A stretch of 42,535 bases of DNA. It comes from a virus. Its lineage: Duplodnaviria; Caudoviricetes. The stretch is from the IMG/VR virus record IMGVR_UViG_3300036783_000100, positions 1 through 42,535 of that record. One strand, written 5' to 3'. Shown here in pieces: positions 352-42,535 of the stretch; the stretch's first letter is position 1, and the number at the start of each line of letters is the position of its first letter. The notes under the pieces were generated by a model. It saw only the letters and a program-made list of their open reading frames with translations. It had not been told where the DNA came from and did not search any database. The position numbers and the translations under genes were made by a program.

Positions 352-605
352 GCGGACTTCTCCTGTCGCTGAGGTTGAGGGGTTGCATTACGGATTTACT
401 TGTCAGCAACGCCCGTAACCTCGGCGGCAGGAGACGCCCGTTAAGCCCGGCGGCGGCTTGCACTGATGACGCGCAGTGCGACGCGGAACGCCCGGTTATT
501 CCCCCGGCGGCGGGGCAGGCACGGCACGCTATTGGTGGGACCGACACACTGGCATGCGCCGGTCCCTAACCAACGGACAGGAGTGACCAAGGCCGTTGGT
601 TATCG
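352..605 (-). ncRNA. Structured capsid mRNA leader (two hairpins, three tandem pseudoknot-like motifs, anti-SD hairpin), allele A
   Basis: Stem-GCCGCCG-stem-linker-GGGCGU occurs 3 times (489-515, 435-459, 410-431). Hairpins 537-566 and 567-602 covary with allele B. Confidence 0.7.
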
Positions 606-5963: not shown

Positions 5964-6665
5964 CTACGCGGCCTCTTGCGGTTGGAGCGTGTGGGTCGGT
6001 GCTGCCCCGCCGCCGGGCGCGGGGTGCGCGTCCGTCGCCTGCTTCACACGCTTTGGATAGGGCTTTGCCAGGGGCGCGATGCGTGCGCGCATTTCGGCAT
6101 CGAGGGGGAGTAAATAGCGGTGCTTAACCCCTGCAACAACACGCGCCGCCCTAGCGTCCACATGAGCGCGAAGCCACGGAACTGACTGACCACCAATCCC
6201 GTATCTAGAATGCAGCGTCTTGGGATGCACCATCACGCCACGCACACGATAAGCGTGTGTCTCGCTGCCTCCTGAGTAAAGCCACCCAGCAGCTTGATAT
6301 ATACCGCCGTGGTGACCTTGTGCTGTATCAGCAAACGACACGATTAGCCTAATTCCTGGGCAACGAGTGCGCAACATCGAAACGGCTATTCGGATAACCC
6401 GAGAAACAGCTGCACTATGCCGTGTCAACGCAATGCGCGTTAACTCGCACACCTGGGTTCCGTTCAGGCCGTATGGTCTGCACAATTCTGGCGTGGCGCC
6501 TTGGCCAAACATCACAGCGCCAACGAATTTGCCATCTTCCCACACGCCTAGCCTAACGGCCTTAAAGACGGGCGTTCTGCGGGAGTAGTGCCAACGCTCG
6601 CAGGCATATCGAGCAGCCGCGTGGCTACACCAATCAAGCCTCAGCTCAAGCTGGGCTGAAGACAT
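5964..6665 (-). CDS. Mom-family DNA (adenine) modification protein, GNAT fold
   Basis: WHYS, ELTRIAL and IVSFADTAQGHHGGIYQAAGWLYSG resemble phage Mu Mom. Start chosen at MSSAQLELRLDW. Confidence 0.75.
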   Translation of the reverse strand: MSSAQLELRLDWCSHAAARYACERWHYSRRTPVFKAVRLGVWEDGKFVGAVMFGQGATPELCRPYGLNGTQVCELTRIALTRHSAAVSRVIRIAVSMLRTRCPGIRLIVSFADTAQGHHGGIYQAAGWLYSGGSETHAYRVRGVMVHPKTLHSRYGIGGQSVPWLRAHVDARAARVVAGVKHRYLLPLDAEMRARIAPLAKPYPKRVKQATDAHPAPGGGAAPTHTLQPQEAA

Positions 6666-7173
6666 GGCCGCACTCTGGGCAGGTAACTGGCGCCCGCTCA
6701 TCAAGCCGCCCCTGTTGATCCTCGCCGACAGGAGCAAAGTCAGGTTCATTCAGTAAATCCGCTAGTTCATCATCGCTGAACCCGATCAGCGACACGTCGA
6801 AGTCCAGGCCACGCAGTGCGTCCAGCTCGCCGGCCAGCAGCGCCTCGTCCCAGCCGGCATTCAGCGCCAGCTTGTTGTCGGCGAGGGCGAGGGCGCGGCG
6901 CTGTGCGTCGGACAGGCCGGCGAGCGTGATGGTCGGCACCTCGGCCATGCCAAGGCTGCGCGCGGCCTCAAGGCGGCCGTGGCCGGCGATGATGGTGGCG
7001 TGCTCGTCGATCAGGATCGGGTTGGTCCAGCCGAACTCACGGACGGAACGAACCAGTTGCGCGATCTGGGCCTGCGAGTGCGTGCGGGCGTTGCGATCGG
7101 CCGGCGCGATTGAAGTAATAGGTGAGTAAATCACCGTAAGTCTTTTAGAATGCTCCAAGAAGTTGCCGCTCAT
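6646..7173 (-). CDS. ParB/Srx N-terminal domain protein with C-terminal Zn-ribbon half motif
   Basis: RNARTHS..QIAQL..S.REFGWTNPILID...IIAGHGRLEAA...ADNKL, ending CPECGHVF. Confidence 0.85.
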   Translation of the reverse strand: MSGNFLEHSKRLTVIYSPITSIAPADRNARTHSQAQIAQLVRSVREFGWTNPILIDEHATIIAGHGRLEAARSLGMAEVPTITLAGLSDAQRRALALADNKLALNAGWDEALLAGELDALRGLDFDVSLIGFSDDELADLLNEPDFAPVGEDQQGRLDERAPVTCPECGHVFSPA

Positions 7174-13303: not shown

Positions 13304-13575
13304 CAGGTCAAAGCCCCAGGCCGGTAAAGCGGCGCCTGCCCGCGCTCGGCGCGTGCGCACGCCAACTCCCAGGCCAGCGCCTCGCGCGCAGCGGCCAACT
13401 CGTGCGGCATACTCGGCCGGGGCGGCGGCGGCGGCGGCCCCGCCATACGCTGCAGCTTCATCTTCACCGCCAGCCTGGTACGCCCCAGCGCGTCGGCGAT
13501 GTCCTCGAGCGACACGCCCTCCGTGAGGCGCCGGCGGGCGCGCAGCACCTCAGCACCGGTCCACGGCCGGCTCAT
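13300..13575 (-). CDS. Small HTH protein (GcrA N-terminus-like)
   Basis: MSRPWT....GVSLEDIADALGRTRLAVKMKLQRM. Confidence 0.65.
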   Translation of the reverse strand: MSRPWTGAEVLRARRRLTEGVSLEDIADALGRTRLAVKMKLQRMAGPPPPPPRPSMPHELAAAREALAWELACARAERGQAPLYRPGALTW

Positions 13576-14015
13576 GCCGCGGCCTCCAGCCGCGACACCG
13601 GCCGGCGGACGTAGGCCAGGCGGACATGCACAGCGCAATACGGGCAGCCCGCCAGCGCCGGCGCGTCGCAGAAGCGGAACCCCTTGGTGCGCGGCTCACC
13701 GGTAGGCCATTGGCACGTCCGCACCACGGCGGGCACCGGCGCCGCGGGCTTGGGCGGCGCCTTGGGCGGCTTCTGCGGCTTGCGGGCCAGCGACCGCCGA
13801 TGCGCCTCCGCCAACTCCGCAGCGCCCCGTGGCGGCGGCGGTGGCGGCTGTGGCATGACGGCGCGCGGCGCCAGGTGCAGCCGGTGGACTTTGCCGAGCA
13901 CGGCGTTCTTGCTGTAGCCGAGCTGCGCGCCGATCGCCGCGGCGGTCAGATCCGTCTCCCACAGCGTGCGCAGCGCATCGCTCGCGTGCTCGGGCCACAG
14001 CACAGGCGCGCTCAT
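13572..14015 (-). CDS. gcrA: GcrA cell-cycle regulator homologue
   Basis: W...LRTLW...TAAAIGAQLGYSKNAVLGKVHRLHL and C-terminal CQWPTGEP...FRFC...PYCAVH...AY. Confidence 0.85.
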   Translation of the reverse strand: MSAPVLWPEHASDALRTLWETDLTAAAIGAQLGYSKNAVLGKVHRLHLAPRAVMPQPPPPPPRGAAELAEAHRRSLARKPQKPPKAPPKPAAPVPAVVRTCQWPTGEPRTKGFRFCDAPALAGCPYCAVHVRLAYVRRPVSRLEAAA

Positions 14016-14103
14016 GGCCGCCCCCAGCGCCGGTTGAACCGCTTCGCCCGCCGCATCGCGCGGCGCAGGACCACGGCAAAATACAGGCGCTCGAGCCACG
14101 CCA

Positions 14104-17719: not shown

Positions 17720-18475
17720 TTGGCTGGCCGTAACATAAGGCGCGAACCTCTCTCCCTGTTTCCGGAGCCACTGCGGCAGTGTTCGAGGTGCAAGGATCAC
17801 CTGCCTCTTGAGGCATTCCGCGCCGGTAGCAAGAACAAGGACGGACTGGAATCACGCTGTCGTAAATGCATTGCGGCAAAACAGGCCGCTTATAGAGTGG
17901 CCAACCTCGAGAAGGAAAAGGCCCGCCAGGCTGCTTGGGCGAAGGCCAACGCCGAGAAGCGGCGAGAACTCCGCCGGGAGTATTACCGCAAGCATCTCGC
18001 GGAAAAGGCGGCCGCCGACTACGCTGCCGATCCCGAGAAGTACCGCGAGATACACGCCCGCTGGCGTCGGGCGAATCCGGAGAAAGAACGCGCCCGCCAC
18101 CTTGCCTACAAGGCTGCCAACACCGAGAAGGAAAAGGCACGCCATGCCGCTTGGGCGAAGGCCAACCCAGAGAAGGCCGTGGCCAAGGCGCAGCGCCGTC
18201 GAGCCAGAAAGCTCGGCGCGTCTGGCGATTATACGATCGACGACATTGCGCGGTTAAGGATTGCGCAGAAAGGCCGTTGTGCCTTTGCGTCTCTCCGGTA
18301 TTCGTGGTGCGACCGAGCACTAAGCAAATCCTGCCACATAGATCACATCACCCCTCTCTCCAAAGGGGGCACGAATTATCCGCGCAACCTGCAACTCCTA
18401 TGTCGACCGTGTAATGTGCGAAAGCATGACGCGCATCCGGTTGACTTCGCGCAGGCTAATGGGACGCTGCTATAA
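17720..18475 (+). CDS. HNH endonuclease with N-terminal Zn finger and helical repeats
   Basis: CSRC...CRKC; repeated NxEKEKARxAAWAKAN; HIDHITPLSKGGTNYPRNLQLLCRPCNVRK. Confidence 0.9.
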   Translation: MAGRNIRREPLSLFPEPLRQCSRCKDHLPLEAFRAGSKNKDGLESRCRKCIAAKQAAYRVANLEKEKARQAAWAKANAEKRRELRREYYRKHLAEKAAADYAADPEKYREIHARWRRANPEKERARHLAYKAANTEKEKARHAAWAKANPEKAVAKAQRRRARKLGASGDYTIDDIARLRIAQKGRCAFASLRYSWCDRALSKSCHIDHITPLSKGGTNYPRNLQLLCRPCNVRKHDAHPVDFAQANGTLL

Positions 18476-40847: not shown

Positions 40848-42210
40848 TTATGCGTCGGCCACGGCGGTGGTGAAGATGGTGAATATGCCGTTGTCGACCG
40901 GCTTCGTTGTGTCCACCGTCGGATCAACACCGAAGCGCAGTTTGCCGATGCCGCGGATTTCCTGCAGACCGACGCCGTGCATATATCCGTAGTCACGGGT
41001 ATTGGTCGTGGACTTCATCCGCTGCGCCCATGCGCAACCCAATGCCTGCGCGCCGCACAGGAACGAGGCCGCGACATCGACGCCGCCGGCACCGGCACCG
41101 GAAATGGTGACCAATTCGGGGATCTCACGGATGATGATGCCGTCGTAAATCAGGTCGCCACCGGTAAACAGCGGGTTATCCGTCCCGCGGTTCCACGCAT
41201 ATTGCAGCGCGTTGGTCAGCACCGGGTCGAGCAGCAGATCGCGAAACACCAGGCTCGGCATGAAGCAGACGAACCATTCCTCGTCGTCGTTGACGGTGAT
41301 GGGGCGGATGCGCGGATTGGCGGTGCGTGCCATGCGCTTGGCCAGCGTGAGGATCGCGGTGCTCATGCGGTCGCCTGGCGATGCCAGTGTGAGCAGCGCG
41401 GTCGCCATGACGCCGGATGCCGCGTTGGCCTTCTGGTGGCCGAACAGCACGCGGTCGGCGTTGTTGACCATCCACGTATTGCGCTGGCCGGCGGTGGCCG
41501 CGCCGTAGCTCACCTGCACGTTGTTGTCGGCGGTCATCGCCCCGAACGAGGTGATGATGTCCGTCCGCATCTTCTCGAGTTCCCAGGTCATCAGCGCCTC
41601 GCGCGCTGCCTCCCTGAGATCGACCACCGACTTCTGCTCGTCCCAATCACTCACCGCGACGGCGTGCCGGAAGGCACTGACGACGAGGTTCATCGAGCGG
41701 AGGTTGAGGATTTCCTCATTGCCCTCCAAAATGGTGTTGCCAGTAACGCCCGCGCCAACCAGCCGCCGCAGCGCGGGGAAGACGACGGTGTCGCCGGATT
41801 TGCGGGTGAGATCCTCGCGCACCTGGATCAATGATCCGGTGCTGGTTCCCATGTATTTCGCGAACTGATTTCGCTTTGCCTTCGCGCCGGATCGCTAGTC
41901 CGACACCGCCCTGCCGGGGCTGCTACCGATCGCTCGGTAGATGAGACCATATCACCACCCACTTGGGGTGCCGGGCGCTTCGGGCCGCTTGGCCCTACGA
42001 GCTTTCGCTCTGGTCGTTGCACCTTCCGCCTTGCGGCGGCTTGGCTCAGGATTGTCTGCGAGAGAGGTTCCCTGAGTTCACCCGGTTATCGACATCCATT
42101 ACTGGACGAAGGCGCCGAAGCAGTTAACGCACATATTCGCTAAAAAAATCCGAATCCCATATAAGTGGAGTTAGCCCTTGTCTGGCCGGCGTCACGTTCA
42201 TGTCTGCCAA
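40848..42210 (-). CDS. Major capsid protein (N4-gp56/DUF4043-like), split: exon 1 42127-42210, exon 2 40848-41873; 369 aa spliced
   Basis: IQVREDLTRKSGDTV, LEGNEE, RHAV, NPLFTG, LCGAQA motifs. Joining the exons reproduces the 1-351 allele exactly (TTG start, AAGGA SD). Confidence 0.92.
41874..42126 (-). ncRNA. Group I self-splicing intron (253 nt, no ORF, with P7.1/P7.2, IA-like)
   Basis: Exon ends in U and intron ends in G. P1 with U.G, P10, P3 CCGGGUG/CGCCCGG, P4 CUCAGG/CCUGAG, P7 GACCA/UGGUC, P8 and P9 can all be paired. Absent from allele A. Confidence 0.93.
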
Positions 42211-42455
42211 CGGAGTGTTCCTTTACTTCGAGGTTACGGGGTTGCTTCGGATATTTACTTGTCGGCAACGCCCGTAACCTCGGCGGCAGGAGACGCCCGT
42301 TAAGCCCGGCGGCGGCTTGCACTGATGACGCGCAGTGCGACGCGGAACGCCCGTTGCCCCCGGCGGCGGGGTAGGCACTTAGGCGAGGCCGGCGCCGCGC
42401 CAACAGCAGCCGGCCTCTAACCAACGCGAGGGAGTGAAGCCCGCGCTGGTTTTCG
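42211..42455 (-). ncRNA. Structured capsid mRNA leader, allele B
   Basis: Same three motifs (42348-42371, 42294-42318, 42269-42290). Flanking hairpins are diverged in sequence but keep their pairing. Confidence 0.7.
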
Positions 42456-42535
42456 CTACGCCTGGCGCCGCGCGTGCTGCGGCCTACGCAGGATGTCGTC
42501 CATTGAGGGCGGCCCGGTGAACGCCGTTGTGGTCC
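42456..42535 (-). CDS. Scaffolding protein 3' end (duplicate of 606-685)
   Basis: Identical to the end of the scaffold gene. Confidence 0.85.
   Translation of the reverse strand, partial: TTTAFTGPPSMDDILRRPQHARRQA

What the first reader, a model, noticed from the sequence alone, without database searches (positions are those of the whole stretch)
41874..42126. ORF-less group I intron in a phage major capsid gene, with the intron-less allele in the same contig
Seen: a 253-nt insert between codons R28 (CGU) and R29 (CGA), starting with an in-frame UAA and ending in G. IGS UUCG-GCGC pairs the 5' exon GCGU (U.G at the splice site, P1) and the 3' exon CGAA (P10). Also present: P2 with GUAA loop, P3, P4, P6b CCGCC-GCAA-GGCGG, P7 GACCA/UGGUC, P7.1 GAGC-GAAA-GCUC, P7.2 GGGCC/GGCCC, P8 CACCC/GGGUG and P9 CUACCGA-GCGA-UCGGUAG. 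The intron-less allele has CGC, not CGU, at the site (267/268). Known: phage group I introns are reported mostly in DNA-metabolism, terminase and lysin genes of lower-GC phages. One in the most abundant virion protein gene of a GC-rich alphaproteobacterial-type phage is unusual, and capsid synthesis would depend on splicing.
Basis: partly seen in the sequence, partly recalled or inferred. Interest (0 to 1): 0.82.

Follow-up and report, generated by a model that had tools for sequence, protein, structure and literature searches.

The report
Site-hopping intron in phage capsid gene
A 253-base group I intron with no gene of its own interrupts the major capsid gene of this uncultured soil phage and likely splices itself out; capsid introns are already known, but almost the same ribozyme core sits at two other positions of this gene in close relatives, likely through DNA recombination between co-infecting phages.

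Summary
The intron is real. Window 42126-41874 (minus strand) hits Rfam RF00028 at 60.5 bits (cut-off 50), every named helix pairs, 26 of 67 pairs covary in 12 relatives, and removing it restores a 369-codon capsid frame. Contigs from public DNA runs bridge both junctions with no differences. Splicing is untested (no RNA data). The 'intron-less allele in the same contig' is most likely a second strain merged at the contig ends. The claimed novelty fails: capsid introns are published (LittleE with RT-PCR, Tuc2009, crAss-like phages), 70 of 87 related cores found here lie in capsid genes, and this scan has noted the kind on other DNA several times. The window's core is 143/145 and 144/145 identical to introns at two other sites, while third codon positions of the host genes are only 68-70% identical. 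One of these introns is a clear mosaic, and the nt-973 intron travels with a downstream free-standing HNH gene (11 independent pairs, median p 0.016). This is a sharper case of a published pattern (B. cereus prophage TMP introns). New member of a known kind.

The parts
42127..42210 (-). Exon 1 of the major capsid gene (28 codons, TTG start; the other strain has ATG)
   Evidence: contiguous with exon 2 in intron-less relatives; phrog_334 positions 7-28 in the intron-less copy
41874..42126 (-). 253-nt ORF-less group I intron (IA2-like) at CDS nt 84 ('site A'); first base 42126, terminal G 41874
   Evidence: RF00028 60.5 bits; splice restores frame; covariation; junctions bridged in DNA runs X1, X2, X3
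42112..42119 (-). Internal guide sequence: P10 half (intron nt 8-11) and P1 half (nt 12-15)
   Evidence: 4 of 4 P1 pairs in 22 of 22 curated introns, with three different exon/IGS combinations
42093..42108 (-). P2 hairpin with GUAA loop
   Evidence: 6 pairs, 3 with changes on both sides, 100% of cells paired
41944..42085 (-). Catalytic core P3-P4-P5-P6-P7-P8 with P7.1 (41999-42010) and P7.2 (41982-41995); G-binding G-C pair at 42015/41945 after a bulged C
   Evidence: intron nt 42-186 are 143/145 identical to L024 (site D) and 144/145 to L031 (site C)
41884..41940 (-). P9 (41923-41940), P9.1 (41908-41920) and P9.2 (41884-41906)
   Evidence: 5 of 7 P9 pairs and 4 of 7 P9.2 pairs change on both sides
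40848..41873 (-). Exon 2 of the major capsid gene (341 codons plus stop)
   Evidence: PF13252 E 2.2e-48; phrog_334 E 8.9e-65
40971..40972 (-). Unoccupied site D (CDS nt 986) in the window's own capsid gene; same 4-nt 5' exon and first two 3' exon bases as site A
   Evidence: 3 such contexts in the CDS: nt 84, 878, 986; occupied in L024, L179, L176
1..351 (-). Intron-less 5' third of the same capsid gene from a second strain, cut by the contig start; empty site A at 268|267

Best explanation
This is an ORF-less, IA2-like group I intron in the phage's major capsid gene that likely self-splices from the late mRNA to restore the 369-codon frame, and it belongs to a pool of related introns that likely spreads and swaps cores at the DNA level among co-infecting phages. 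Shown: group I structure with covariation; exact frame restoration; four occupied sites in this capsid family (CDS nt 71, 84, 973, 986), each with a matching guide sequence; cores 98.6-99.3% identical between the window and sites C and D; a mosaic intron (L031); co-occurrence of the site-C intron with a free-standing HNH gene just downstream. Inferred from established group I chemistry: exogenous G bound at P7 attacks the U.G splice site in P1, P10 aligns exon 2, the exons ligate, and the in-frame UAA ends translation of unspliced mRNA after 28 codons. Inferred for spread: nuclease genes flanking the capsid gene cut its ends and co-convert nearby introns (collaborative homing), and recombination between introns at different sites replaces cores while the site-specific ends stay. 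The window's allele has no nuclease gene beside it, so it is likely a passive passenger now. How site A was first colonised is not resolved. My odds: real and spliced about 0.92; DNA-level core swapping or hitch-hiking as the main route of spread about 0.7.
For: RF00028 above cut-off. Structure: 97.5% of 793 cells paired, 26 of 67 pairs with changes on both sides against 16.5 +/- 2.2 in shuffles (0 of 500 as high); slid controls 33-43% paired. P1 complete in 22 of 22 curated introns across three exon/IGS combinations. Spliced product equals the other strain's protein at 116 of 117 positions, the exception being the start codon. Junctions bridged with 0 differences: X1 piece 42053-42172 and X2 piece 41800-42008; diverged site-A variants in X1 and X3. 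Core identity to other sites 143/145 and 144/145 against 123/149 (L024 vs L179, both site D) and 116/150 (L031 vs L069, both site C); host genes 86-87% identical, 68-70% at third positions. L031 sides with the window at 27 of 27 informative core sites and with site-C L069 at 25 of 28 outside (Fisher p 1e-12); monophyly of site-D introns rejected, p-AU 0.003. Site C with downstream HNH: 18 of 21 informative loci against 14 of 66 others; 13/15 vs 10/50 after clustering at 97% (p 5e-6); 11 independent pairs, median p 0.016; control with the upstream nuclease p 1. The four sites form two pairs 13 nt apart near the gene ends, chance about 0.002-0.005 in simulations designed after seeing the data.
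Against: No RNA evidence: the one RNA run listed (X12) holds only a related intron in another context, not this phage. No nuclease has been shown to cut the capsid gene. The window's allele has no nuclease gene within the scaffold-capsid gap or just downstream. The 5' association is weak: site B 3 of 3 informative loci, but 2/2 vs 17/58 after clustering, p 0.10; with site A added 2/3, p 0.23. The one informative site-D locus (L176) has no downstream HNH hit, 3 site-C loci lack it (L194, L195, L233), and 14 loci without the site-C intron have it. The independent-pairs p ranges 0.004-0.125 over pairings. Monophyly of site-C introns is not rejected on whole introns (p-AU 0.08). All sequences are metagenome assemblies, and L024 and L031 carry the same assembly number, so assembly blending of similar cores cannot be fully excluded. 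P6a pairs poorly in the alignment (64-79% of cells; indels).
Confidence: 0.7

Rival explanations
1. Site A was colonised recently by RNA-level transposition: an excised site-D intron reverse-spliced into a look-alike sequence in the same capsid mRNA and was fixed through host reverse transcription and recombination.
For: The window's nearest relative is the site-D intron of L024 (218/232 over intron nt 17-247; tree support 96/96). Site A shares its 5' exon tetramer and the first two 3' exon bases with site D in L179/L176, whose P1 guide is identical to the window's, and with the window's own empty site D. No nuclease gene lies beside site A. Site A was absent from all 80 capsid loci kept.
Against: No reverse transcriptase among the 39 larger ORFs scanned (smaller ORFs not scanned). 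The first six intron bases match the site-B introns 13 nt away, not site D, which points to an older 5' resident overwritten by recombination. L031 shows that cores are swapped without a change of site. Site-A variants with 5-14 differences exist in runs X1 and X3, so the insertion is not brand new. Hausner et al. 2014 state that the RNA route has no direct experimental evidence (PMC3984707, passages).
Confidence: 0.2
2. The near-identical cores are an assembly artefact (collapsed repeats), and the window's intron is simply an old, vertically inherited resident.
For: Short-read metagenome contigs; a 145-nt core exceeds common k-mer sizes; the window itself merges two strains; L024 and L031 share an assembly number.
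Against: Each contig has matching 5' and 3' exons for one site, not a cross-site join. The three cores differ from each other by 1-3 bases. Loose ends in runs X1, X2 and X4 show a site-C-type P2 joined to a window-like core in separate studies. Vertical descent does not fit 12 changes of the site-C label on the capsid tree.
Confidence: 0.07
3. The intron is a dead relic; the capsid is made from Met 41852 or this allele is non-viable.
For: No RNA or peptide data. Exon 1 starts with TTG rather than ATG.
Against: All helices and the G-binding pair are intact. Exon 1 has only silent differences from the other strain apart from the start codon. Met 41852 lacks a purine-rich site and would drop profile positions 7-34. 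The allele and its variants occur in three runs of three studies.
Confidence: 0.05

Closest known systems
TMP-IVS1 and TMP-IVS2 group IA2 introns of Bacillus cereus group prophages (Tourasse and Kolsto 2008, PMC2504315; passages and section 8 part 1 of 2 read)
   Same: Related IA2-type introns at different sites of one phage structural gene, core more conserved than ends, P1 adapted to each site; that section also describes HEG-less phage introns found in different phages.
   Different: There 80% overall and 90-92% in the core; here 98.6-99.3% in the core, four sites in a capsid gene, a demonstrable mosaic, and a measured link to a flanking free-standing HNH gene.
Capsid intron of mycobacteriophage LittleE and the 265-bp ORF-less tail intron of BAKA/Optimus (Pope et al. 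2013, PMC3706429; passages)
   Same: Intron near the start of a highly expressed capsid gene in a phage of a high-GC host; a 156-bp segment 98% identical between introns in different genes.
   Different: The LittleE intron encodes an endonuclease and splicing was shown by RT-PCR. The BAKA intron is not detectably related in sequence to this one (local score 19 against a shuffle mean of 22).
[quoted passage not shown]
   Same: ORF-less introns near the end of a conserved gene beside a free-standing nuclease gene; statistical co-occurrence at site C.
   Different: No cutting shown here, and the window's own site-A allele has no adjacent nuclease gene.
T4 td intron (group IA by the record's note; IA2 from recall) and the unannotated intron-like insert in the DNA polymerase of Ralstonia phage BOESR1
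   Same: 27 of 32 identical bases over J4/5-P5-P4 with td (score 44, highest of 200 shuffles 28); two hairpins after P7 as in td; 73% over 162 nt with BOESR1.
   Different: td carries I-TevI and sits in a DNA-metabolism gene; this one is ORF-less, 62% GC, and in a capsid gene.
Group I introns in MCP genes of crAss-like phages (Yutin et al. 2021, PMC7886860; passages)
   Same: Group I introns in major capsid genes, several per gene.
   Different: Detected there through encoded endonuclease domains, in gut Bacteroidetes phages.

Membership tests
Group I intron (RF00028) | Covariance-model score above the family cut-off | tested here: met
   60.5 bits against 50; 9 of 20 relative loci scanned also pass
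Group I intron (RF00028) | P3-P4-P6-P7-P8 core with covarying pairs | tested here: met
   All core pairs standard in the window; two-sided changes in P3 (2), P4 (1), P7 (1), P8 (1)
Group I intron (RF00028) | U.G pair at the 5' splice site in P1, and P10 | tested here: met
   P1 4/4 and P10 4/4 in the window; P1 4/4 in 22 of 22 introns; P10 only 1-4 of 4 in relatives
Group I intron (RF00028) | Terminal G and G-binding G-C pair in P7 | tested here: met
   Terminal G at 41874; G-C pair invariant in 12 of 12 rows
Group I intron (RF00028) | Guanosine-dependent self-splicing with exon ligation | not testable with these tools
   No RNA run holds the phage
Subgroup IA2 | P7.1 and P7.2 hairpins between P7 and P3, bulged C in P7 (definition recalled) | tested here: met
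   P7.1 4 of 4 and P7.2 3 of 5 pairs change on both sides; similar segment in T4 td
Subgroup IA2 | Best score with subgroup-specific models | not testable with these tools
   No subgroup models are held; PMC11878797 (passages) calls IA2 heterogeneous
Mobile (HEG-containing) group I intron | Endonuclease ORF inside the intron | tested here: not met
   253 nt, stops in all three forward frames
Collaborative homing pair | Free-standing endonuclease gene next to the intron-bearing gene | tested here: not met
   Not met for the window's allele; met for 18 of 21 informative site-C loci and 3 of 3 informative site-B loci
Collaborative homing pair | The endonuclease cuts the intron-less allele at or near the insertion site and not the intron-bearing one | not testable with these tools
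   Needs a cleavage assay

The most novel reading that the evidence does not exclude
The capsid gene of this soil phage clade records group I intron transposition in progress: one ribozyme core occupies three sites of the same gene at 98.6-99.3% identity, site A is a sequence look-alike of site D, and the window's guide already fits the empty site D of its own mRNA. That would be among the closest natural traces of an ORF-less intron moving to a new site, and a ready substrate for testing reverse splicing against DNA-level capture. The wider lineage appears specialised on capsid genes (70 of 87 cores).
Probability: 0.22. Interest if true: 0.62.

Novelty: new member of a known kind. Interest (0 to 1): 0.33.

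Why it matters
As a single intron it is ordinary, though such inserts truncate capsid gene calls in metagenome annotation. The comparative set is more useful. How ORF-less group I introns reach new sites is described as lacking direct evidence (PMC3984707). Here one small gene family offers four sites, near-identical cores, a clear mosaic and candidate partner nucleases, so core swapping, collaborative homing and reverse splicing can be tested side by side with short natural sequences.

Tried and rejected
1) RNA evidence: 1 of 24 listed runs is RNA (X12, share 0.06); it holds a related intron in another context and 43 nt of capsid-like sequence, so it says nothing on splicing here. 2) 'Guide memory': the base after the window's P1 guide would pair with site D but not site A; it is the same C in all 22 introns, so it is no evidence of origin. 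3) The window's HNH gene (17720-18475, +) as partner: it resembles the downstream-of-capsid HNH family mainly in its C-terminal part (27-42% identity) and lies about 23 kb from the intact capsid gene on the other strand; not supported. 4) More site-A copies in viral contigs: a junction pattern gave 2 hits, neither related to the intron; an exact P7.1 pattern gave 9 hits, none at site A. 5) Relation to the BAKA intron: none. 6) Cultured phages: 0 of 218 matching records cover 80% of the intron; where the best matches are annotated they lie mostly in polymerase, primase/helicase, terminase and psbA genes. 7) Promoter/terminator scan around the gene: 0 promoter-like and 2 terminator-like sites, at chance level. 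8) Automatic splice-site calls were wrong or truncated for L078, L149, L177, L229, L161, L220 and L187; L078, L187, L177, L229 and L161 were reset by eye, and L149, L220 and L077 were left out of the 22-intron set. L176 was mislabelled B and corrected to D. L149, L176, L181 and L157 were dropped from the clustered tests and the tree for short capsid sequence. 9) A custom covariance model was not built (one search failed on a length slip). 10) A search for the recalled T4 intron domain-shuffling report found 0 papers; not used as evidence. PMC10580990 (passages) was not relevant.

Full report
Setting. The window is a whole 42.5-kb virus record of a podovirus-like phage: P22-like portal, terminase, ejection and tail proteins, a Mom-like gene, GcrA. 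GC is 66%. The two best-holding runs are soil metagenomes (shares 0.89 and 0.68). The ends overlap imperfectly: 1-685 against 41607-42535. In the coding part 311 of 351 bases match and 35 of 40 differences are at third positions. I infer that the assembly went round a circular map and switched strain; runs X1, X2 and X3 each show intron-less alleles as loose ends at the site beside intron-bearing pieces. So the two alleles coexist in samples, not necessarily in one genome.

The observation. Window 42126-41874 is a 253-nt insert after codon 28 of the capsid gene. RF00028 scores 60.5 bits against a cut-off of 50. Removal gives a 369-codon frame, contiguous in 69 of the 80 best relatives kept out of 121. 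On 12 of the 22 curated introns, 97.5% of 793 cells pair and 26 of 67 pairs change on both sides (shuffles 16.5 +/- 2.2; 0 of 500 as high; slid controls 33-43% paired). P6a pairs poorly because of indels, and the structure was drawn on the window's sequence, which favours it over slid versions. Whole-region folding is only modestly better than shuffles (z -2.6; 3 of 200 as good). X1 bridges the 5' junction (42053-42172, 0 differences) and X2 the 3' junction (41800-42008, 0 differences); X1 may be the source sample. X1 and X3 hold diverged variants at the same site. No RNA run holds the phage, so splicing is inferred. P7.1 plus P7.2 and a 27/32 match to T4 td suggest subgroup IA2 (definition recalled, no subgroup model run).

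Is a capsid intron unusual? No. PMC3706429 (passages) confirms splicing in the LittleE capsid gene and cites Tuc2009. PMC7886860 (passages) reports introns in crAss-like MCP genes. PMC2504315 (section 8 part 1) reports IA1/IA2 introns in tape-measure, tail-tube and terminase genes. Three core patterns gave 161 loci and 87 distinct cores: 70 in major capsid genes (25 SU10-type, 21 of this family or similar to it, 24 in phrog_3437, 544, 283, 371, 1357, Gp10A or PF19821 types), 4 tail sheath, 2 terminase, 1 each DNA polymerase, RNA polymerase and nrdB, and 8 unassigned. The patterns select the window's sub-lineage; the nearest matches in cultured phages are mostly in DNA-metabolism genes. Earlier notes of this scan record the same kind in other genomes.

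Four sites in one gene. Relatives carry this family at CDS nt 71 (site B: L077, L078, L149, L187, L220), 84 (site A: window), 973 (site C: 23 loci) and 986 (site D: L024, L179, L176). P1 is complete in 22 of 22 curated introns with three exon/guide combinations; P10 is 1-4 of 4. The sites form two pairs 13 nt apart near the gene ends (post-hoc chance 0.002-0.005). Only 1 of 75 relatives examined (L004) has the four exon bases that the window's P1 needs at site A.

Near-identical cores. Intron nt 42-186 match L024 (site D) at 143/145 and L031 (site C) at 144/145, while same-site pairs are more distant (123/149; 116/150; 130/147). The three capsid genes are 86-87% identical and 68-70% at third positions, so the core moved after the genes diverged. 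L031 is a mosaic: window-like at 27 of 27 informative core sites, site-C-like at 25 of 28 outside. The window follows L024 from about nt 10 to 247 (218/232 over nt 17-247), but its first six bases match site B. Site-D monophyly is rejected (p-AU 0.003); site-C monophyly is not (0.08). Loose ends in X1, X2 and X4 show a site-C-type P2 on a window-like core. Assembly blending is a residual risk.

Partner nucleases. An HNH gene starts about 70-230 nt after the capsid stop in 18 of 21 informative site-C loci, against 14 of 66 other informative loci. Clustered at 97%: 13/15 vs 10/50, p 5e-6; at 90%: 9/11 vs 7/29, p 0.003. On the capsid tree (97 rows), 11 independent pairs go the same way in 7.8 and the other way in 0.3, median p 0.016, range 0.004-0.125; the control with the upstream nuclease gives p 1. 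An HNH-AP2 gene lies upstream in 3 of 3 informative site-B loci, not significant after clustering (p 0.10). Detection used three query nucleases and a 600-nt limit, so other families would be missed. The window's allele has neither: its upstream sequence runs straight into the 3' end of the 290-aa gene that precedes the capsid gene, and its only homolog is at 17720-18475.

Mechanism. Most likely the ribozyme splices from late mRNA by the standard two-step, guanosine-initiated route (established chemistry, untested here). The pool likely spreads by hitch-hiking in conversion tracts of flanking nucleases and exchanges cores by recombination in mixed infections (inferred). Site A may be an old 5' resident overwritten by a D-type body, or a recent jump from D to a look-alike site. 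The second reading is attractive because the window's own empty site D has the same 5' exon tetramer and first two 3' bases, but no reverse transcriptase was seen among 39 ORFs scanned and the RNA route lacks direct evidence (PMC3984707).

Novelty. Six literature searches found precedents for each element: capsid introns, related introns at different sites with retuned P1 (PMC2504315: 80% overall, 90-92% core), 98% shared segments between genes (PMC3706429) and collaborative homing. They found no report of this phage clade or of 99% cores at three sites of one gene; the library lacks most subscription papers and supplements were not opened. Verdict: real, probably functional, new member of a known kind, with a useful comparative twist. 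Interest 0.33.

Noticed in passing
window 42230-42369 and 371-510 (minus strand): GC-rich, hairpin-forming element in the leader of the capsid gene, better conserved between the two strains than its flanks; blastn hits in 25 of 100 capsid loci; no Rfam match above cut-off. Possible regulatory RNA or DNA site.
   Followed up: partly
L161 and L177, 3' ends of the site-C introns: Both introns appear to end in A instead of the terminal G if the capsid frame is to be restored; boundaries set by eye.
   Followed up: partly
L081, L084, L121, L129, L140, L143, L147, L175, L204, L211: Loci of other phage groups with two or three related intron cores within about 1.5 kb, mostly in or at capsid genes.
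   Followed up: partly
L097/L247, L083/L246, L128, L207: Related introns near the start of tail sheath genes; L097 has a NUMOD3-bearing putative nuclease gene just upstream; L097 and L083 share the window's P7.1 hairpin exactly.
   Followed up: partly
L245 (Ralstonia phage BOESR1, OR367448) 1201-1371: An intron-like insert 73% identical to the window's splits the annotated DNA polymerase into two CDS; the record does not annotate an intron.
   Followed up: no
window 17720-18475 (+): Free-standing HNH gene on the strand opposite to most genes, related in its C-terminal part to the HNH genes found behind the capsid gene in relatives.
   Followed up: partly
window 5964-7173 and 13572-14099 (-): Mom-like DNA modification gene beside a ParB-like gene, and a GcrA-like regulator.
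   Followed up: no
window 42208-42210: The intron-bearing allele starts with TTG where the other strain has ATG; an in-frame ATG follows at 42201.
   Followed up: no
L005 2417-3523: An in-frame TAA at codon 25 of an otherwise intact capsid gene; sequencing error or defective copy.
   Followed up: no
L256 (DATEPG010000593.1): A 2-kb contig filed in a Polyangiaceae MAG carries this capsid family with a site-C intron; too short to take as host evidence.
   Followed up: no
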